Shown here in pieces: positions 2,659-9,526 of a stretch of DNA of 57,234 nt. The first letter of the stretch is position 1; the number at the start of each line of letters is the position of its first letter. The notes under the pieces were generated by a model, which saw only the letters and a program-made list of their open reading frames with translations, made no database searches and had not been told where the DNA came from. Source of the DNA: a bacterium. Lineage in GTDB: Bacteria > Armatimonadota > JACIXR01. The position numbers and the translations under genes are program-made. The stretch lies in the NCBI GenBank assembly GCA_014360465.1, contig JACIXQ010000004.1:1-57234 (forward strand), in the 5' to 3' direction.

Positions 2659-5211
2659 CTAAGGGGTTGAATTTTCCAATAGCGTCAACCAAAAACTCGC
2701 TGTTGCTGAGGCAAAGCTCCCACATTTGGCATTGCGAGCCTTTTGGAAACTTTCCTTCGCTCTGTCTTTTTTTCCACTATAGCAGAAACATTTCCCTTCC
2801 TCAATTAATGCCACAACACTATCTTCACTTTCAGGATACTGTTTAACAATTCCTTGGAGCACATCAATCGTTCCTTGCATGTCTCCCATTTCGCCAAAGA
2901 AAGATGATAGCCACAAGAGGGTGGAGGAGGTGAGTATATCCTTAAGTTTGGTATATTCATTCATTACTTTTTCTTTCCCTCCTATAGAATATAGATATGG
3001 AGTAATGACCTCCAGCGCAGCCGTCACTATTTCTGGTGAAGTATTTTTATAATTTGATACTAATTTTTCATACTCTTCATATCCTAACTGTTCAAGACCG
3101 GTTAAAAAGTAAATGTCTATTATCGCTAATGAAGCATCCGCTCCTTTTGGGGTGTGAGGATATTTTTCTGCTCTTTCTTTCAACAGGGAAACAGTAATAG
3201 ATCTATCCTTTTCTTCATCATAGTTAAGAGCAAGATAGCTTAGAGCTTGAAAATCCAATAGCTCGGCTACCGCCATTGGTTCTATATCAAGGTAATCTGT
3301 GATGGCATATTTTACCGCTTGGAGTACTATCTCATAATCTTTCGCGAAATAAGCACACACCGCTGTTCCTATAAGTGAGAGGAAGCGATAATCTCCATTA
3401 TAATTGAGCACTTTGCTGTAGGCATCAAGCGCTTCCTTATACTGCTCGCCGTCTTCATAGTAAAGTGCGAGGGTATACCATTTAAGCTCACTATCTGGAA
3501 GGCTTTCATTTAGTCTTTTCAATATCTCCCTCTCTTTTGGGAGATTTCGTCCCGCTCTATACCGCCAGGCAATGTTCATAAGTGCAGAGTTGGCCTTTTC
3601 ATCAGAGGGGTACCTGAGAATAAAATCCTCGTATACCTTTATTGCCTCTTCGTTCCTTCCCAAAAGCGAATACATATCACCTAAGCTAAAGAGAGCTTCC
3701 TTGCTTTCTTTTGTGAACGGATATTCATCCACAACTTTTTTGAACCACTCCGCTGCTTCCGTGTAATGCCTTTGAGCGAAATGCAACCAAGCGATATTAA
3801 TCATTACAGCGGGAACTTTTTCATCATCGGGAAAAAGCTTTATAAATCTCTCATAGAATTTCATAGCTTCCTCGTTTTTTCCCAATGAAGATAACATATC
3901 ACCGGCTCTTATTAAAGCCTCTGGAGCGCACTCAGCTTGGGGGAAGTTCTCAGCCGTTTTCTTGAAGAACAAAGCCGCTTTATCGTAATCTTTCAACTCC
4001 GCATAGCGCCAAGCAATGCTCATCAAAGCGTAGGGGCACTTTGGGTTATTTGGATATTTTTGCAAGAATTCTTGATATATTTTGATTGCTTCTTCGGTTT
4101 TGCCAAGTCGAGCAAGCATATCTCCCGCATACAATAGGGCCTCTGTTCCCTCTATGCTATCAGGAAACTCAGCGTTGATTTTAAAGAATAATTGTGCTGC
4201 TTTCTCACAATCCCCTTTCTCCGAGTAGCGCCAAGCGATATTAGCTAAGGCGGATGGGACCCGTGTATCCCCGGGAAACTTTTCTATAAACTCCTGATAA
4301 GCAGCTATTGCCTCGTCTAATTTTTTAGCATAGGAATACATATCACCAGCCCGGAGAAGCGCCTCGGTTGTAAATTGGCTTTGGGGATAGTCGTTTGCTA
4401 CTTTCTTAAAGGCATCCGCCGCTTTATCATAATTTCGAATTAAAAAGTAACGCCAAGCGATATTCATCCAAGCACCAGCATTGTAGTTTGGGTCAGTGGA
4501 GTAATTTAAGCTCCTCATTTCACAGTCTATCGCCTTTTCAACCTCTCCAATCTCTGCGTATTTCCTCGCCATTTCGTGATACAAATCCCTTGCTAAATCA
4601 GGTGTTGATACTTCTTTAATCTTCAGTGAAAAAACTTGTTCTTCTTTTTTGAATTGTTCATAGATTGACTGCACGGTTAAAAGACGAGCTTTGGCGGAAG
4701 ATAAAAGCGCTTCATCTTTGCTTCCTAAGGTTAGCGCCTCCTGGTAATCCTGCAAAGCTTTTATTAACCATCCTTTCTTCTCAAAGGCGATGCCCCGATT
4801 GTAATAAGCGTAGGCGAGTATATCTCTGGGGGGCTTTTGCCCTATAAGGGATGTAAGAGACTCTATAGCCGAGTCATATTTTCCTTCTTCAATATCGCAC
4901 ATTGCCAAGCCAAGGAACCCGCTCGTCCCGATTTCGCCCTTCCAACGGGAAGCTCTTGAAAAATATTTGCGCGCTTGCTTGGGGTTTCCCAAAGCAAAAT
5001 AACATTGCCCCATCCGAAGATTAGCTTTTGCAATATTTTCATTCCAGCCGGTTCTTTTTAATACCTCCGAAAAATTGTTTATTGCCTCTTGATATCGTTT
5101 AGCTTGGAAGTTAATTTCTCCTTCTTGCAAGATTTCTTTCTGGGCAAGTGATAAGGCAAGAGCGTTCAGGAGGAAAAAATAAAATTGCCATTTAATTGGT
5201 GTTTTTTTCAT
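2659..5211 (-). CDS. Large exported TPR-repeat protein (BamD/CpoB-like 37-aa repeats)
   Basis: Probable start 5211 after a GGAGGAG RBS. Signal peptide ALALSLAQ; many yP.s....ALL..GD / ALMNIAWRY repeats. Confidence 0.85.
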   Translation of the reverse strand: MKKTPIKWQFYFFLLNALALSLAQKEILQEGEINFQAKRYQEAINNFSEVLKRTGWNENIAKANLRMGQCYFALGNPKQARKYFSRASRWKGEIGTSGFLGLAMCDIEEGKYDSAIESLTSLIGQKPPRDILAYAYYNRGIAFEKKGWLIKALQDYQEALTLGSKDEALLSSAKARLLTVQSIYEQFKKEEQVFSLKIKEVSTPDLARDLYHEMARKYAEIGEVEKAIDCEMRSLNYSTDPNYNAGAWMNIAWRYFLIRNYDKAADAFKKVANDYPQSQFTTEALLRAGDMYSYAKKLDEAIAAYQEFIEKFPGDTRVPSALANIAWRYSEKGDCEKAAQLFFKINAEFPDSIEGTEALLYAGDMLARLGKTEEAIKIYQEFLQKYPNNPKCPYALMSIAWRYAELKDYDKAALFFKKTAENFPQAECAPEALIRAGDMLSSLGKNEEAMKFYERFIKLFPDDEKVPAVMINIAWLHFAQRHYTEAAEWFKKVVDEYPFTKESKEALFSLGDMYSLLGRNEEAIKVYEDFILRYPSDEKANSALMNIAWRYRAGRNLPKEREILKRLNESLPDSELKWYTLALYYEDGEQYKEALDAYSKVLNYNGDYRFLSLIGTAVCAYFAKDYEIVLQAVKYAITDYLDIEPMAVAELLDFQALSYLALNYDEEKDRSITVSLLKERAEKYPHTPKGADASLAIIDIYFLTGLEQLGYEEYEKLVSNYKNTSPEIVTAALEVITPYLYSIGGKEKVMNEYTKLKDILTSSTLLWLSSFFGEMGDMQGTIDVLQGIVKQYPESEDSVVALIEEGKCFCYSGKKDRAKESFQKARNAKCGSFASATASFWLTLLENSTP
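3540..4470 (-). repeat. Five 222-bp (74-aa, paired-TPR) tandem repeats inside the TPR gene
   Basis: The IAW[R/L] codons recur at 4451, 4229, 4007, 3785 and 3563, exactly 222 bp apart. Confidence 0.85.
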
Positions 5212-5231
5212 AATATTCTCCTCCATTCTAC

Positions 5232-5997
5232 CTACTTCCCATTTATCCCTTGGAGTTTTAGATAAGCTAAAAGGGAAGCTTCCGTATCCGGATACAGCTC
5301 TATGCATCTCTTGTAAGCAACTTTTGCCCGTTCTTTATCGTCGAATTTTTCCAAATAAAGGTCCCCGAGACAAAATAGTAAACCCGCGCTAGCCGACTTT
5401 AGCATTTTCACGATATAACCGATGCCTCTCTATTATCAAAGGCCAACGCAGTTCGTCGACATTTGAAATAAGTTCCTTTAGCCTTCCGTCTGCCTCACTT
5501 ATGGCTGATTCAATTTGAATAAGAAGCGCTTCCTTAAGCACTTGGTAGGCTTCTGGGCGGATTTTAGGAGCAGGAAAAATATGTTTAGATTTTTCAACTT
5601 GAATGGAGTTATTGGGAAACCCTAAAAGAATTTGTAGTTTTGCTTCTGCTTCTCTTCCGAGAGCGCGTATTGTTTCATTTTCGGGATATTTTGGGAGCAA
5701 CTCCCACCATATCTTAAGGGCTCTCGCAGGATTCATAGACGCCCGCTTATAATATACTGCCTCCCAGATAAGGCGCCTTATAAGGGTTCCTTGAACATTT
5801 AGCAAGCATTTTTCAAGCGCCACTTGGGCATCTACCCACTTGCCATTTTTCATCGCATCTTGATAAGCCTTAAACTCTTCCCCCGCCTTTTTAAGGGAAG
5901 TGTAGATGAAAAAGGATGTCCCTTGCCCCCTTGCTACTCCAATATATGTCAGCGATAGGCAAACAACCAGGAGTAAAACTCTCTGTGCTCTAATCAT
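5232..5997 (-). pseudogene. Exported TPR protein, +1 frameshift at A4 run 5405-5408
   Basis: Signal peptide from Met 5997. The ORF stops at 5389, but the +1 frame continues MLKSASAGLLFCLGDLYLEKFDDKERAKVAYKRCIELYPDTEASLLAYLKLQGINGK*, a clear TPR, ending just before the next RBS. Confidence 0.8.
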
Positions 5998-7450
5998 TTC
6001 CTTCCCCAAGAATATGTGCATAAACTGGTATATTTAAAATTTCTTCCCCTGGGACATCGGTGAGGACTTCCAATACACCTTCTATAACCCCCTTTTTGTC
6101 TGCATTCAAGTAGACAGTTATGCGCCACTTTTCGTTAGATATCTTGCAGACATCTAAAGAAACATTTGAGAGGGAACATCTAACTCCCTTTAACCGGAAG
6201 GAAGTCCCATTAATTGAGTGAACATATAAATCCCGCGACGAAGTTTGCATAACTTTTAGAAAACCGAAAAATACGAAGGAAGGACATATCTCTAAATCCC
6301 CCTGCACCCAGATATCCACTGGTATAGTAATGAGAGGCTGATTCCGAGATGTCGTAAGGATGAACAAATCATCATGATACTTGCCTGGAAAGTTGTTACC
6401 CCGATAAGAGAGCCTCAATTGCCAAAGTTGAACATCATCTATGCTATTTTTTTGAAGCTTGTTATCCTTTTCGCTTTCCTCTCCCCTGTTTGTTTCTCGT
6501 CGCAAATTAATCAGATTTATAAGAAAAAGACCCTTTTCGCTTCTCACTTCTTTTATTTCAACATCCGATGGAAGAGTAATTCTGACATTACCGCTAATAG
6601 GGTGCCTTTTTCCACCATGGAGCTCCAAGCTTTTTGGCAAGACCTCAACCTCATAGGGAACTTTTCCGCTTATGGTCAAAAAAACGACCGGCTGAGAAGG
6701 GTCATTGGTAAGCAGCTTAGCGGATAGCTCTATTCTCCCTGGGAACAAGGGGATATATTTTACCGTTACTTGTGTCGTTTCCCCTGGAGGCACGACCTTT
6801 TTCTCCACTAATATATAAGGGACACCACAAGACTCTGATTGAGGCGAAATAAGGAGGTCGCTCTTCCCTTTGTTGGAGATAAGGAAAGTATGTTGTATTT
6901 GCTTTCCCCTCTCTACTTCTCCAACATCAAAGTGGAATTCCTCTAAATGCAAATATGGACCACCCTCATTGGTATATGATTTAGGCTCTAAAATCAACGC
7001 ATATCCAGTATAGCGTGAGGAAATCTCAACTCGGGGAACGCTATAAACCTTCCATCTCCCAATCACTTGGACCCACATCGGAGAAAAGCGTGAAACAGTT
7101 ATAAAATGTTCCGGGTCTTTCAGATGCAGAATTTTTGGCCCAGGGATTTGTTCCAATTCCTCCAAAGTAGCTTGCACACCTATCAGTTTAATTCCTAATT
7201 TGGAAGCCGCTTTCTTTATATCTAACATACTACATTCAGCCTGTGGATAAGCTCTCACTATTCTTTCCTTTTCATCTTCGCTTAGATTCCTCCCCATTAT
7301 ATCACAGAGCCTAAACAAGCTTCTTATCCCACAGCTTTTAGGGGTTACCTCTGCGGGATAGATTATTTCGCCTAAAAGGAAAAACAATAATAAAAATTTT
7401 ACTTCCTCGTTTAAGAGCTTACTCGCGAATAACTTCTCCAGTATCCTCAT
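5990..7450 (-). CDS. Exported C39-family peptidase fused to DUF1573/Ig-like domains
   Basis: Hydrophobic N-terminus, then SCGIRSL (Cys), SMLDIKKAASKLG, LEEL...PKILHL...HFITV (His). Followed by FDVGEV...HTFLISNKGKSDL...SCG...VPPGET (DUF1573) and two more Ig-like repeats. No ABC domain. Confidence 0.8.
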   Translation of the reverse strand: MRILEKLFASKLLNEEVKFLLLFFLLGEIIYPAEVTPKSCGIRSLFRLCDIMGRNLSEDEKERIVRAYPQAECSMLDIKKAASKLGIKLIGVQATLEELEQIPGPKILHLKDPEHFITVSRFSPMWVQVIGRWKVYSVPRVEISSRYTGYALILEPKSYTNEGGPYLHLEEFHFDVGEVERGKQIQHTFLISNKGKSDLLISPQSESCGVPYILVEKKVVPPGETTQVTVKYIPLFPGRIELSAKLLTNDPSQPVVFLTISGKVPYEVEVLPKSLELHGGKRHPISGNVRITLPSDVEIKEVRSEKGLFLINLINLRRETNRGEESEKDNKLQKNSIDDVQLWQLRLSYRGNNFPGKYHDDLFILTTSRNQPLITIPVDIWVQGDLEICPSFVFFGFLKVMQTSSRDLYVHSINGTSFRLKGVRCSLSNVSLDVCKISNEKWRITVYLNADKKGVIEGVLEVLTDVPGEEILNIPVYAHILGEGND

Positions 7451-8384
7451 TTACAATCATTCCTACCCCTGTTCGTGGAATGGTAAAAACTTTCTCATCT
7501 ACCGACTTGTTAATTTTCAAACTTTTGGTGTCAATTTTAAAAATAGTTTTCCCGATTAGTTCCCCATTTTTGTCCTTTGAAATTCTCTCAATTTTCAGAG
7601 GAAAAACAGTACTCTCAATGGATTTTACCTCTGTTACTTTGAGCTCTTCTGATATCTCTGTGGGCGCCCATTGGCTTTCCCCAATCGGTGAAACTTGTAT
7701 TCTTCTGTAGATGTATAAAGGGAAATAAGTAAACTCAGAGGCGAAAAATACTTCGTATGTTTCTCCTTGGTAATACGCTGCATCTCCTTCACCAATCTTC
7801 ACTTTCGGTTTTTGCAAAGTTAATTTCACACCTTTGTGTCCGAACATTTCCGCTTCGGAATAAGCTGCGACTCCATCAACAAGCCTTTCCCAAGTTGTTT
7901 TTTCCTTCAGTGTAGCGAAACGGGGAATTTCGTTTGGAGCATAAACGAAAGAGTAAAGCTCCAGCAGAACATCATAAGAAGCTGTATCATCCCTAAGCGG
8001 ATTGGAAGAAAAGATTAGAATTCCCTTCTGCTCAATCCCCATCTTATAAAGATATTGATACGATTCACCATTAAAACTATTTATCATTAACCCTTTCTCT
8101 TCACCCTTGGTTCCTTTCATCACCACCTTGCGATAATATTTATCTCCTTTCAGAACAAAGAATACATCGCTGTAGGGTATATCTGCAAGTTCAGCATCTT
8201 GCATCGTTAGAGTGGAGGTATATTCTAAGCTGTCAAGCTTCTGAAAATAGGAAAGTTGATAAAGAAAGACCGTCTTCGCTTGTTCTTTTATATCTTTCCC
8301 CAAAGATAAATCCCATTCCCCAATTATTAGCCCTATAAAAATCAACCACACTATCTTCTTCCTTTTTATATTTTCGATAAACAT
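7419..8384 (-). CDS. Exported LolA-like-fold protein of unknown function
   Basis: Start 8384 after GGAGGGAGG. Signal/anchor peptide, beta-rich body (SFNGESY) and C-terminal KINKSVDEKVFTIP..G..V.E typical of LolA-like proteins. Confidence 0.55.
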   Translation of the reverse strand: MFIENIKRKKIVWLIFIGLIIGEWDLSLGKDIKEQAKTVFLYQLSYFQKLDSLEYTSTLTMQDAELADIPYSDVFFVLKGDKYYRKVVMKGTKGEEKGLMINSFNGESYQYLYKMGIEQKGILIFSSNPLRDDTASYDVLLELYSFVYAPNEIPRFATLKEKTTWERLVDGVAAYSEAEMFGHKGVKLTLQKPKVKIGEGDAAYYQGETYEVFFASEFTYFPLYIYRRIQVSPIGESQWAPTEISEELKVTEVKSIESTVFPLKIERISKDKNGELIGKTIFKIDTKSLKINKSVDEKVFTIPRTGVGMIVNEDTGEVIRE

Positions 8385-8449
8385 TATAAACCTACCTCCC
8401 TCCATAGGTTTTAAATATTTCTTACAAAAAGATTTTAAAATTTACCTAT

Positions 8450-8803
8450 CTAAGGGTCAACACTATTTACTATATAACCTCCACAACCTTGTGTTGATAC
8501 ATCTTTACAATCCTTAGCCCATATTACTCCGCATTGATAACCCTTTTCGTTCGCCATATTATCATTAGGATTTGATTGTAACCCGGGTAAGCTTGTCGGA
8601 AGTTTTACGCATCCACCTATACCAGGTATACAAGTTGGATAGGCTGCGCACAGCGCTTCCGTTCCGCAGTAGGGTGGCCCCGAAGCACCACGGATGCTCG
8701 CCATCACCTCGTCGCTTAGTAGCGCCATGCATTGCGTTGGGATAGCACTACCCAGCAACAGAATACATATTAGGACGAGAAAGCAATATACCGTATACCG
8801 CAC
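8450..8803 (-). CDS. Cys-rich secreted precursor peptide with Sec signal plus double-glycine-type leader
   Basis: GTG start after AAGGAGG. Residues 1-27 are signal-like, 28-40 are LLSDEVMASIRGA, and the 77-aa core has 7 Cys. Confidence 0.75.
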   Translation of the reverse strand: MRYTVYCFLVLICILLLGSAIPTQCMALLSDEVMASIRGASGPPYCGTEALCAAYPTCIPGIGGCVKLPTSLPGLQSNPNDNMANEKGYQCGVIWAKDCKDVSTQGCGGYIVNSVDP

Positions 8804-8878
8804 TTCACATTCCTCCTTTACTTTTTACTTAGTGTTTATATATATATGTGCCAATTTTTACGAATTTCGTTGGCGCTT

Positions 8879-9526
8879 TTATTCTAAATTTCCATTACAC
8901 AAGATTTTTAGTAGCTTTAAAGCCTTGGAAAACCTCCACCTTACAGTGCTACTGGGGCAGCCAAGCAACTTCGCCATCCCTTCATAGGAATAACCCTCCA
9001 AATAATAAACTACCACTACCCTATATATTGGAGGAAGACAAGGAATAGCCATTCTCAGATCTTCTATCTCCTCTTCTAATTCTAAACCACTGCTCGCCTC
9101 TTCCTCGGTGTATTTGCTCATATCGCCAGAGAGCTCTGTTTTTCGCCACTTTTTCAAATTCTTCAAACATCTCTTTATCACACGTTCGCTTATCCGCCAG
9201 ATGAAGCTATCAAAATTTCCCTTGCCACCGAACTTCTCTATGCTCTTATATATCTCCAACCTTATTTCGCAATAAACATCTTCCCCATCCACTTTCTTTA
9301 AGCCTTTTCTCCCCTTGAAATAGAAACCTATAGCTTTTCTGACCGTCTCCTCGCATCGCCACCAAATATACTCCCAAGCTTCATCCTTACCAAATGCTTT
9401 AAGAAGCCATTTTATGCAATGATAATCCCATTCCTTCTCATCCTTCCCCTCCAACCTCTTCGCCAGTGCCTTTGCCAGCTCCTCCTCCATCTTGTACCTT
9501 ACCTTGAGAAACTCCTCCGCCCTCAT
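8879..9526 (-). CDS. ECF-type sigma-70 factor
   Basis: C-terminal 215 aa of the 492-aa ORF. Has its own GGTGGTGAG RBS and an ATGA overlap with the corrected upstream stop. Region 2 (EDVYCEIRLEIY...FDSFIWRI) and region 4 (LPP..R.V....YLEGYSYEGMAKLLGCPSSTVRWRFSKA). Confidence 0.8.
   Translation of the reverse strand: MRAEEFLKVRYKMEEELAKALAKRLEGKDEKEWDYHCIKWLLKAFGKDEAWEYIWWRCEETVRKAIGFYFKGRKGLKKVDGEDVYCEIRLEIYKSIEKFGGKGNFDSFIWRISERVIKRCLKNLKKWRKTELSGDMSKYTEEEASSGLELEEEIEDLRMAIPCLPPIYRVVVVYYLEGYSYEGMAKLLGCPSSTVRWRFSKALKLLKILCNGNLE

What the first reader, a model, noticed from the sequence alone, without database searches (positions are those of the whole stretch)
8450..8803. Precursor with two tandem targeting signals and a 7-Cys core
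Seen: MRYTVYCFLVLICILLLGSAIPTQCMA | LLSDEVMASIRGA | SGPPYCGTEALCAAYPTCIPGIGGC...YQCGVIWAKDCKDVSTQGCGGYIVNSVDP. Established: LSxxExxxxxG[G/A] is the C39 recognition consensus, with hydrophobic residues at -12, -7 and -4; here these are L, M and I. Such leaders are normally at the extreme N-terminus, not behind a Sec signal. Inference: two-step processing releases a 77-aa core. The odd Cys count implies a free thiol, an intermolecular disulfide or a metal ligand.
Basis: partly seen in the sequence, partly recalled or inferred. Interest (0 to 1): 0.8.

Follow-up and report, generated by a model that had tools for sequence, protein, structure and literature searches.

The report
Sec-exported precursor with double-glycine leader
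A small cysteine-rich secreted protein carries, right behind its ordinary export signal, the kind of leader that is normally cut inside the cell by a transporter-bound protease, and the matching protease is encoded next door in an exported form, pointing to an undescribed way of maturing secreted proteins outside the cytoplasm.

Summary
Window 8450-8803 (minus strand) encodes 117 aa: a Sec-type signal, the motif M-ALLSDEVMASIRGA, and a 77-aa core with 7 Cys.

About 1 kb downstream, in the same cassette, lies an exported, non-ABC Peptidase_C39 protein fused to Ig-like DUF1573 domains.

The core family is tiny: 6 sequences found among billions searched. The cassette is wider. In loci from related MAGs I found 39 precursors with the same plan: signal, then leader, then an unrelated Cys-rich core. 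For 35 of them, L is at -12 in 29, M/L at -7 in 32, V/I/L at -4 in 33 and G at -2 in 34.

All 20 cassettes with an intact catalytic Cys/His and enough upstream DNA have a leader-like segment, 3 of them atypical. The 3 cassettes whose C39 domain is lost or degenerate have Cys-rich ORFs without it.

My reading: Sec export, then cleavage after Gly39-Ala40 by the exported C39. This is inferred, not shown.

The odd-Cys argument fails. Six Cys are invariant and the seventh is missing in 2 of 6 relatives.

I class it as a new variant of a known kind. Interest is high.

The parts
8450..8803 (-). Precursor gene, 117 aa (GTG start, stop at 8450-8452)
   Evidence: ORF list. Paralogue at 64% identity in the same genome. 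Homologues P0002, P0003, P0005.
8812..8816 (-). Shine-Dalgarno GGAGG, 8 nt before the GTG start
   Evidence: Upstream sequence printed. The same AAAGGAGG stands before the starts of the paralogue and of the C124 precursor.
8729..8803 (-). Codons 1-25: Sec-type signal peptide (n-region MR, h-region, c-region ...PTQC)
   Evidence: Hydrophobicity 3.3 over 12 residues. In relatives, small residues stand at -3/-1 directly before Met26 (AHS, AQA, TNG). No signal-peptide predictor was available.
8684..8728 (-). Codons 26-40: double-glycine-type leader MALLSDEVMASIRGA
   Evidence: M26, L29, E32, M34, I37 and G39 are invariant in 5 sequences. Position frequencies over 35 precursors are.
8453..8683 (-). 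Codons 41-117: predicted mature core, 77 aa, 7 Cys (6 invariant), invariant CVKLPTSLP and C-terminal VDP
   Evidence: Alignments. No Pfam, NCBIfam or PDB relative. The AlphaFold model has pLDDT 46, so no fold can be named.
7419..8405 (-). 328-aa exported LolA/TP_0789-like protein, which lies between precursor and peptidase in the cassettes inspected
   Evidence: ESM Atlas structural neighbours. Synteny. Fused to C39 on G000:C124.
5990..7450 (-). 486-aa exported C39 peptidase with three Ig-like (DUF1573/HYDIN-like) domains
   Evidence: PF03412 at 40.5 bits (cut-off 22) and PF07610. Model pLDDT 80, with an N-terminal helix, the C39 domain and three beta domains.
6977..7348 (-). C39 domain (residues 35-158) with Cys40 and His115
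   Evidence: Cys40 and His115 are invariant in 15 sequences. The family profile hits LahT150 6mpz (E 1.1e-5) and PCAT1 4ry2, with Cys and His aligned. The Asp position is Gly in this copy.
5232..6021 (-). Cassette gene with a C-terminal TPR, split here into 210-aa and 59-aa ORFs (262 aa intact in the paralogous cassette)
   Evidence: TPR_6 hit on the intact copy.
2659..5307 (-). 882-aa TPR protein, last gene of the cassette
   Evidence: Same position in the G000:C10 and G003 cassettes.
8879..10357 (-). Thioredoxin-like (CxxC) plus DsbD-like membrane protein, truncated and running in frame into an ECF sigma factor (residues ~320-492)
   Evidence: 34% identity, E 3e-34, to a 382-aa stand-alone protein of cassette L008. 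A fuller copy lies on G000:C5.
10354..11169 (-). 271-aa cassette protein, possibly a papain-like (Peptidase_C39_2-like) fold without the Cys
   Evidence: 31% identity, E 8e-16, to L008 7863-8609. ESM Atlas feature neighbours are a lead only. Pfam PF13529 is below threshold on the L008 homologue.

Best explanation
The gene encodes a pre-pro-protein.

1. The Sec signal (residues 1-25) takes it across the inner membrane.
2. The next 15 residues are a double-glycine-type leader.
3. That leader is recognised outside the cytoplasm by the exported C39 cysteine peptidase encoded 1 kb downstream (5990-7450).
4. The peptidase cuts after Gly39-Ala40 and releases a 77-residue core held by three disulfides.
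5. Signal peptidase I probably cuts first, just before Met26, leaving a 15-residue propeptide.

The LolA-like protein encoded between the two genes is fused to the C39 domain in other cassettes of the same genome. It most likely holds or hands over the precursor. A thioredoxin/DsbD-like membrane protein probably serves disulfide formation.

The window's gene is one member of a wider, undescribed class in which the leader is conserved and the Cys-rich cargo is freely exchanged.

Shown: gene architecture, conservation, synteny and the co-variation with the peptidase's catalytic residues.
Inferred: export, both cleavages, the disulfides and the roles of the accessory proteins.

What the cargo does is unknown. 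My guess, at low confidence, is a secreted antagonistic or surface-acting protein.
For: 1. Architecture and start. The SD sits before the GTG and not before Met26. There is a strongly hydrophobic N-terminal segment.

2. Leader conservation. M26, L29, E32, M34, I37 and G39 are invariant in the core family. Over 35 precursors with unrelated cores: L at -12 in 29, S/T at -11 in 29, M at -7 in 27 (L in 5 more), V/I/L at -4 in 33, G at -2 in 34, and G/A/S at -1 in 27. Mean pairwise identity is 0.34 in the leader, against 0.06 in the next 12 residues and 0.13 in the preceding 12 (583 pairs).

3. Cognate enzyme. PF03412 scores above its cut-off. Cys40 and His115 are invariant in 15 homologues. The profile matches the double-glycine proteases LahT150 and PCAT1 with the catalytic residues aligned. 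An N-terminal hydrophobic helix precedes the domain.

4. Conserved order. The order precursor, LolA-like, C39 holds in the window, in G000:C10 and in G003, and in distant loci.

5. Co-variation. Of 19 C39 genes with Cys/His intact, 18 had a leader-bearing precursor upstream. The nineteenth (L061/L088) and one missed locus (L092) gained a candidate. That makes 20 of 20, of which 3 are atypical (L014 ends RAA, L088 is shifted, L089 is weak). The 3 cassettes with the domain absent (L015) or lacking both residues (L032a, L093) have Cys-rich ORFs with a signal but no leader.

6. No cytoplasmic route. All 4 PF03412 matches in the genome are exported, non-ABC proteins, and each lies beside such a precursor.

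7. Signal peptidase site. Read by eye from the table, small residues stand at -3/-1 exactly at the -16/-15 boundary in 25 of 35, and within two residues upstream in 8 more.

8. Precedent. FapD is a Sec-exported, catalytically active periplasmic C39 (PMC5557850, passages read).
Against: - No cleavage has been observed, and no RNA or protein data exist.
- The -1 residue is T, R, Q or E in 8 of 35 precursors, including one member of the window's own family (P0005, G-E). Canonical C39 enzymes want G/A/S there (recalled).
- The window's C39 copy has Gly where the catalytic Asp aligns. It has no Gln six residues before the Cys, where LahT150 and PCAT1 have one (alignment; the role of that Gln is recalled).
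- The three leaderless cassettes have related cores, so they may be a single evolutionary event.
- The leader regex, and the anchoring of the leader alignment, were chosen after I had seen the sequences.
- Signal-peptide calls rest on hydrophobicity and the -3/-1 rule, not on a predictor.
- The precursor model has pLDDT 46, so the disulfide-knot idea rests on Cys conservation alone.
Confidence: 0.6

Rival explanations
1. One-step release. The N-terminal hydrophobic segment is an uncleaved signal anchor. The membrane-proximal C39 makes the only cut, freeing the core from the membrane. Its catalytic Cys lies about 8 residues after its own hydrophobic helix.
For: The peptidase's own h-region is followed by YPAEV (HPAEV in the paralogue), a poor -3/-1 site. 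It may therefore stay anchored with its active site at the membrane surface. In the window, the residues before Met26 are T-Q-C, an unusual signal-peptidase site. Two of 35 precursors show no acceptable site near the leader (by eye).
Against: In 25 of 35 precursors, small residues stand at -3/-1 exactly before the leader (by eye). The close relatives have AHS, AQA and TNG there. The h-regions have signal-peptide length rather than transmembrane length.
Confidence: 0.17
2. The leader is a docking or sorting tag that is not removed at G-A. The C39 domain, the LolA-like protein or the TPR proteins bind it to chaperone or route the cargo. Inactive C39-like domains of some type 1 secretion ABC transporters work this way.
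For: The -1 residue is non-canonical in 8 of 35 precursors. The window's C39 lacks the aligned Asp. The FapF paper mentions a type 1 secretion subgroup whose C39-like domain lacks catalytic activity and may act as a substrate chaperone (passage).
Against: Cys40 and His115 are invariant in 15 homologues. They are present in all 20 cassettes that have a leader-like precursor and a recovered C39 N-terminus. The leader is absent exactly where these residues are lost. A pure binding role would not need them.
Confidence: 0.12
3. A classical cytoplasmic double-glycine peptide. Translation starts at Met26 and the upstream hydrophobic codons are not translated.
For: Met stands at -15 in all 6 members of the window's family and in 10 of 35 overall. 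That makes the segment look like a complete N-terminal leader.
Against: The SD lies before the upstream start and not before Met26, in both genomic copies. The upstream frame is open and hydrophobic in every relative. 25 of 35 have no Met at -15. There is no ABC-fused C39 among the genome's 4 C39 domains, and the peptidase itself has an export signal.
Confidence: 0.02
4. A chance resemblance: an ordinary secreted Cys-rich protein whose N-terminal region happens to look like a leader.
For: The motif is short, and the literal consensus LSxxE is not met in the window.
Against: The background rate of the loose motif is 3.3%, against 21 of 23 beside C39 genes. The motif is conserved across unrelated cores and co-varies with the catalytic residues.
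Confidence: 0.02

Closest known systems
Double-glycine leader peptides cut by the C39 domain of peptidase-containing ABC transporters (PCAT/AMS: LahT, PCAT1; ComA and CvaB recalled)
   Same: The leader signature is the same: L at -12, S/T at -11, acidic at -10 to -8, M/L at -7, I/V at -4, G at -2, and mostly G/A/S at -1. The peptidase family is the same, and the C39 profile of this cassette hits 6mpz and 4ry2. A conserved leader with diverse cargo is also shared.
   Different: Here the leader lies behind a Sec signal instead of at the N-terminus. The peptidase has its own export signal and is fused to Ig-like or LolA-like domains, not to an ABC transporter. There is no ABC exporter in the cassette. 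The cores are larger (median 94 aa) and rich in Cys. The -1 position is looser.
FapD, the periplasmic C39 peptidase of the Pseudomonas functional-amyloid (Fap) system
   Same: It is a C39 peptidase with a Sec signal that acts in the periplasm on Sec-exported partners (PMC5557850, passages read).
   Different: According to that paper, FapD's target is unknown and Fap proteins lack canonical C39 sequences. Here the putative substrate carries a near-canonical leader. The NCBIfam FapD model is not met (14.5 bits against a cut-off of 330). There are no fap genes or amyloid repeats.
Sec-dependent class II bacteriocins (recalled class; the search listing shows such papers)
   Same: They are small secreted proteins exported by a Sec signal peptide, and some are disulfide-bonded.
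   Different: They have a signal peptide only, with no second leader and no dedicated peptidase.
Inactive C39-like domains of RTX-type ABC transporters (mentioned in PMC5557850)
   Same: These are degenerate C39 folds that have lost the catalytic Cys. The L032a and L093 cassettes show the same loss.
   Different: Those are cytoplasmic and bind leaderless RTX substrates. Here the degenerate copies are exported and sit beside leaderless Cys-rich ORFs.

Membership tests
Double-glycine (GG) leader peptide | Gly at -2 and Gly/Ala/Ser at -1 | tested here: met
   The window has G39-A40. G is at -2 in 34 of 35 precursors and G/A/S at -1 in 27 of 35.
Double-glycine (GG) leader peptide | Hydrophobic residues at -4, -7 and -12 (and -15), with an acidic residue near -8 | tested here: met
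   The window has I, M, L and M. Its Glu is at -9, not -8. The defining positions are recalled from the literature on ComA and LahT.
Double-glycine (GG) leader peptide | Leader at the extreme N-terminus of a cytoplasmic precursor | tested here: not met
   25 hydrophobic signal-type residues precede it. The SD is before the upstream start.
Double-glycine (GG) leader peptide | Cognate C39 peptidase encoded nearby | tested here: met
   PF03412 protein at 5990-7450, about 1 kb downstream on the same strand. The same holds in 20 of 20 cassettes.
Double-glycine (GG) leader peptide | Peptidase is the N-terminal domain of an ABC exporter | tested here: not met
   All 4 PF03412 matches in the genome are fused to DUF1573 Ig-like or LolA-like domains.
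Double-glycine (GG) leader peptide | Cleavage after the GG/GA site demonstrated | not testable with these tools
   Needs biochemistry or proteomics.
Peptidase C39 (the neighbouring enzyme) | Pfam PF03412 above the gathering score | tested here: met
   40.5 bits against 22, and 43.8 bits.
Peptidase C39 (the neighbouring enzyme) | Catalytic Cys and His | tested here: met
   Cys40 and His115 are invariant in 15 sequences. They align to the Cys and His of 6mpz and 4ry2.
Peptidase C39 (the neighbouring enzyme) | Third catalytic residue Asp | tested here: not met
   It is Gly in the window copy and its closest relatives. In other family members it is mostly Asp, with E/N/S/A variants.
Peptidase C39 (the neighbouring enzyme) | Oxyanion-hole Gln six residues before the Cys (recalled feature) | tested here: inconclusive
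   The window has Glu at that position. The domain starts only a few residues after the hydrophobic helix.
FapD-type fibril maturation peptidase | NCBIfam NF058616 above cut-off, and a fap operon context | tested here: not met
   14.5 bits against 330. The neighbours are LolA-like, TPR and an ECF sigma.
RiPP precursor (modified peptide) | A modification enzyme (LanM, radical SAM, YcaO and the like) in the cluster | tested here: not met
   No such family was found among the 8 cassette and flanking ORFs scanned against Pfam, nor among the 6 scanned.
Bacterial lipoprotein | Lipobox [LVI][ASTVI][GAS]C at the end of the signal (recalled pattern) | tested here: not met
   The window has P-T-Q-C. That Cys is absent in the 5 relatives.

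The most novel reading that the evidence does not exclude
The cassette is a self-contained, undescribed extracytoplasmic maturation and delivery system. Its parts are a precursor, a LolA-like carrier, an exported C39, Ig-like and TPR scaffolds, and a thiol-redox membrane protein. In it, a double-glycine leader is read in the periplasm rather than at an ABC transporter. The leader serves both as a pro-sequence and as the address that hands a hypervariable disulfide-rich cargo to a dedicated route out of the cell. The system occurs in many lineages of this phylum and, in fused forms, in at least one other phylum.
Probability: 0.3. Interest if true: 0.9.

Novelty: new variant of a known kind. Interest (0 to 1): 0.78.

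Why it matters
Double-glycine leaders and C39 peptidases are textbook parts of cytoplasmic, ABC-coupled peptide export. A natural class in which the same leader sits behind a Sec signal, and the peptidase is itself exported, would show that this recognition module has been moved to the other side of the membrane.

It would also give periplasmic C39 enzymes a substrate with a readable motif. The FapD paper read here says that enzyme's target is unclear and that this class of C39 peptidases has yet to be characterised.

The conserved leader is a handle for genome mining. It can be used to find a large, hypervariable set of disulfide-rich secreted proteins in poorly studied phyla.

A leader and protease pair that works in the periplasm could also be a useful tool for releasing recombinant disulfide-rich proteins.

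The LolA-like-C39 fusions suggest a new use for the LolA fold.

Tried and rejected
**Tools and searches that gave nothing usable**
- Complex prediction of the C39 domain (residues 33-165) with precursor residues 26-117 returned 'no answer'. The score was 0.72, but one control scored 0.53. I do not count it either way.
- The AlphaFold model of the precursor has mean pLDDT 46.4 with 5 sequences. No fold could be named, so I ran no fold search on it.
- Foldseek of the full C39 protein against the PDB was dominated by the Ig-like domains (HYDIN and central-pair proteins). It said nothing about the C39 domain.
- Single-sequence phmmer of the C39 protein against the PDB found only the HYDIN Ig domain. 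The family profile was needed.
- The precursor has no hit in Pfam, NCBIfam or the PDB, and no longer or fused form.
- The promoter and terminator scans were at chance level (19 found against 18.2 expected; 7 against 9.4).
- The look-up of sequencing runs listed no RNA holder. The laid contigs of X2 and X3 show only that an identical 8235-9000 stretch stands in a second study's DNA run. X3 has no cover over the precursor. This says nothing about expression.

**Other phylum**
- A single-protein search of 301 genomes found only 3 weak C39-domain matches.
- One of them (L105) looks like a related cassette. L106 is unclear. L107 lies in a 1002-aa ORF whose domains I did not check.

**Explanations rejected**
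- Lipoprotein: there is no lipobox.
- Anti-sigma factor: there is no cytoplasmic domain before the hydrophobic segment.
- RiPP: there is no modification enzyme.

**Literature**
- No paper held DUF1573 together with C39, or Armatimonadota together with double-glycine.
- 'Double-glycine' with Planctomycetes gave only PMC3482391, whose passages concern toxin C39 domains.
- The other searches listed nothing that describes a Sec signal followed by a double-glycine leader.
- Subscription journals and supplements were not searched.

- The look-up of encoding contigs is marked closed, and I did not call it.

Full report
**1. The observation**

The minus strand of window 8450-8803 holds a 117-aa ORF with a GTG start. 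A GGAGG lies 8 nt upstream of the GTG. The internal ATG of Met26 has no such site. The same holds for the paralogue on G000:C10.

The protein reads as follows:
- a short charged N-terminus;
- a strongly hydrophobic stretch (mean Kyte-Doolittle 3.3 over 12 residues);
- a polar c-region;
- M-ALLSDEVMASIRGA;
- 77 residues with 7 Cys.

The Glu is at -9, so the literal LSxxE pattern is not met.

**2. The core family is tiny**

- A word-indexed search of 5.8 billion clusters gave 3 proteins, counting the window's own.
- An exhaustive profile search of 1.84 billion representatives gave 4 hits. Two of them are repeat proteins that I regard as spurious.
- With the paralogue in the same genome (64% identity), the family has 6 sequences.
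- It was found in 2 of 41 related genomes, both of one genus.
- No longer or fused form was found, and there is no Pfam, NCBIfam or PDB relative.

In the 5-sequence alignment, M26, L29, E32, M34, I37 and G39 are invariant. So are six Cys (52, 58, 65, 91, 99, 107), the CVKLPTSLP block and the C-terminal VDP.

Cys46 is missing in P0003 (whose near-identical copy is in G003) and in P0005.

One relative (P0005) has G-E instead of G-A or G-G.

**3.

The gene sits in a minus-strand cassette, in this order:
- a 271-aa protein;
- a thioredoxin-like/DsbD-like protein that runs into an ECF sigma factor;
- the precursor;
- a 328-aa protein;
- a 486-aa protein with Peptidase_C39 (PF03412, 40.5 bits, cut-off 22, residues 35-158) followed by DUF1573/HYDIN-type Ig-like domains;
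- a TPR-tailed protein;
- an 882-aa TPR protein.

From the precursor onward, the same order recurs on G000:C10 and in genome G003.

The C39 protein begins with a hydrophobic helix. Its model (pLDDT 80) shows helix 15-30, the C39 domain at 40-160 and three beta domains.

Fifteen homologues keep Cys40 and His115. The family profile finds the double-glycine protease LahT150 (6mpz, E 1.1e-5) and PCAT1 (4ry2), with Cys, His and, in the consensus, Asp aligned. In the window's copy that Asp position is Gly.

The 328-aa protein has a LolA/TP_0789-like fold by ESM Atlas structural neighbours. Those neighbours include a cluster in another phylum in which this fold is fused to Peptidase_C39 (a lead).

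**4. The wider class**

I used the C39-DUF1573 alignment to fetch loci from three sources:
- species genomes: 12 loci;
- metagenomes: 28 loci;
- 401 genomes of the phylum: 50 with a match at E <= 1e-15, many of them DUF1573-only. Larger regions were fetched.

The titles of named loci mention Armatimonadia, Armatimonadetes and WS1 MAGs.

I scanned these loci for small ORFs with a hydrophobic N-terminal stretch and several Cys. The motif played no part in the selection. The scan found ORFs with one plan: signal, then a leader, then a Cys-rich core that bears no likeness to the window's core or to most others.

For 35 distinct precursors the leader frequencies are:

| Position | Residue(s) | Count of 35 |
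|---|---|---|
| -12 | L | 29 |
| -11 | S/T | 29 |
| -7 | M (plus L) | 27 (plus 5) |
| -4 | V/I/L | 33 |
| -2 | G | 34 |
| -1 | G / A / S / T / R / E / Q | 15 / 8 / 4 / 3 / 3 / 1 / 1 |

Mean pairwise identity between different core families is 0.34 in the leader. It is 0.06 in the next 12 residues and 0.13 in the preceding 12 (583 pairs). I anchored the leader alignment myself, so this contrast is descriptive.

Cores are 26-158 aa long (median 94) with 5-16 Cys. The count is even in 24 of 35.

Four more precursors came later: two on G000:C124, and L092 and L088.

A loose regex for the leader, written after seeing the sequences, hits 49 of 1463 (3.3%) ORFs with a hydrophobic start in the window's genome. 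It hits 21 of 23 of the first hand-collected set.

**5. Co-variation with the catalytic residues**

I aligned all C39-DUF1573 ORFs in the loci to the family HMM (97 hits, 63 distinct). I then paired each with the small Cys-rich ORF upstream.

| C39 state | Loci | Upstream precursor |
|---|---|---|
| Cys and His intact | 19 | 18 leader-bearing |
| Cys and His intact, resolved later | L061/L088 and L092 | atypical candidate in L088, behind an inserted IS3-like element; clear precursor in L092 that my filter had missed |
| Domain absent | L015 | signal and Cys-rich core, no leader |
| Both residues replaced | L032a (E, G); L093 (V, V) | signal and Cys-rich core, no leader |
| N-terminal part of the ORF not recovered | G003 | has the leader |

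The tally is therefore 20 of 20 for intact enzymes. Three are atypical: L014 ends in RAA, L088 is shifted and L089 is weak.

L084 and L090 have too little upstream DNA to judge.

The three leaderless cores resemble each other, so they may reflect one loss.

**6. The genome has no cytoplasmic route for such leaders**

PF03412 matches the genome 4 times: in the window, on C10 and twice on C124.

The C124 proteins are signal + LolA_like + Peptidase_C39 fusions with a canonical Cys/His/Asp. Each is preceded by a precursor whose leader ends in K-A-G. None is fused to an ABC transporter.

The LolA-C39 fusion argues that the separate LolA-like and C39 genes of the window's cassette work together.

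**7. Mechanism**

The best reading is Sec export, then cleavage after Gly39-Ala40 by the exported C39, which releases a 77-aa core with three disulfides.

Signal peptidase probably acts first. Read by eye from the table, small residues stand at -3/-1 exactly before position -15 in 25 of 35 precursors, and within two residues upstream in 8 more. No clear site is seen in 2.

Three accessory proteins recur in the distant L008 locus and on other contigs of the window's genome:
- the thioredoxin/DsbD-like protein (34% identity to a cassette protein of L008);
- the 271-aa protein;
- the TPR proteins.

Their roles are inferred.

Precedent for an active periplasmic C39 exists in FapD. According to the passages I read, its substrate is unknown and Fap proteins lack canonical C39 sequences (PMC5557850).

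**8. Weak points**

- Nothing has been measured.
- The -1 residue is non-canonical in 8 of 35 precursors.
- The window's enzyme lacks the aligned Asp and has no Gln before the Cys.
- The complex prediction gave no verdict, and the precursor fold is unknown. I use neither as evidence.

Rivals:
- a one-step release from an uncleaved signal anchor;
- a leader that docks but is not cut;
- an internal start at Met26;
- chance.

The last two are poorly compatible.

**9. Novelty**

In the searches I ran, no paper describes a Sec signal followed by a double-glycine leader, or C39 joined to DUF1573 or LolA-like domains. Subscription journals and supplements were not covered.

I class this as a new variant of a known kind: the double-glycine leader and C39 module moved outside the cytoplasm and coupled to Sec. 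The bolder reading is a new dedicated maturation and delivery system.

Noticed in passing
window 5232-6021 (-): The TPR-tailed cassette gene is split into a 210-aa and a 59-aa ORF. Its paralogue on G000:C10 (2798-3586) is one 262-aa ORF. This is a frameshift or an assembly error near 5400.
   Followed up: partly
window 8879-10357 (-): The thioredoxin-like (CxxC) plus DsbD-like membrane protein matches its relatives only to about residue 202. It then runs in frame into the ECF sigma factor. A fuller copy (339-aa ORF) lies on G000:C5 3528-4547, beside another 271-aa protein and another sigma factor.
   Followed up: partly
G000:C124 1570-6357 (+): Two further cassettes in the same genome. The precursors (1570-1995 and 4371-4826) have a leader ending in K-A-G. 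Each is followed by a signal + LolA_like + Peptidase_C39 fusion protein with a canonical Cys/His/Asp.
   Followed up: partly
L105 5587-8750 (-) (genome G474, another phylum): A 454-aa ORF with 72 Cys has LSPQEMKEIKGG just before the Cys-rich part. It stands upstream of a 383-aa protein and a 189-aa C39 with a lipoprotein-type signal. No clear Sec signal was seen on the precursor as called.
   Followed up: no
L052 3512-3715 (-) (same ORF at L081 7289-7492): A precursor whose predicted core is only 26 residues with 5 Cys. This is far shorter than the others (median 94).
   Followed up: no
L088 6037-7138 (+): IS3-like transposase ORFs sit between the LolA-like gene and the C39 gene of one cassette, separating the peptidase from its putative precursor.
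   Followed up: no
L015 4931-7948; L032 12-2854; L093 5893-9208: A sub-group of cassettes whose DUF1573 protein has no C39 domain, or one without Cys and His. Their Cys-rich ORFs start the core (..QYC..) a few residues after the signal, with no leader.
   Followed up: yes
window 11492-14818 (+): A 1108-aa protein on the opposite strand, next to the cassette, with DUF5696 and weak Glyco_hydro_101 matches. I saw no link to the cassette.
   Followed up: no
window 8235-9000: An identical stretch stands in a contig of a DNA run from a second study (X2). The listed holders are hydrocarbon and oil-production metagenomes.
   Followed up: no
L006 7595-8827 (-) (G003): The C39 gene of the G003 cassette is called without its N-terminal part, including the catalytic Cys. 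It also contains a masked stretch. This could be a frameshift, an assembly gap or a real truncation.
   Followed up: no
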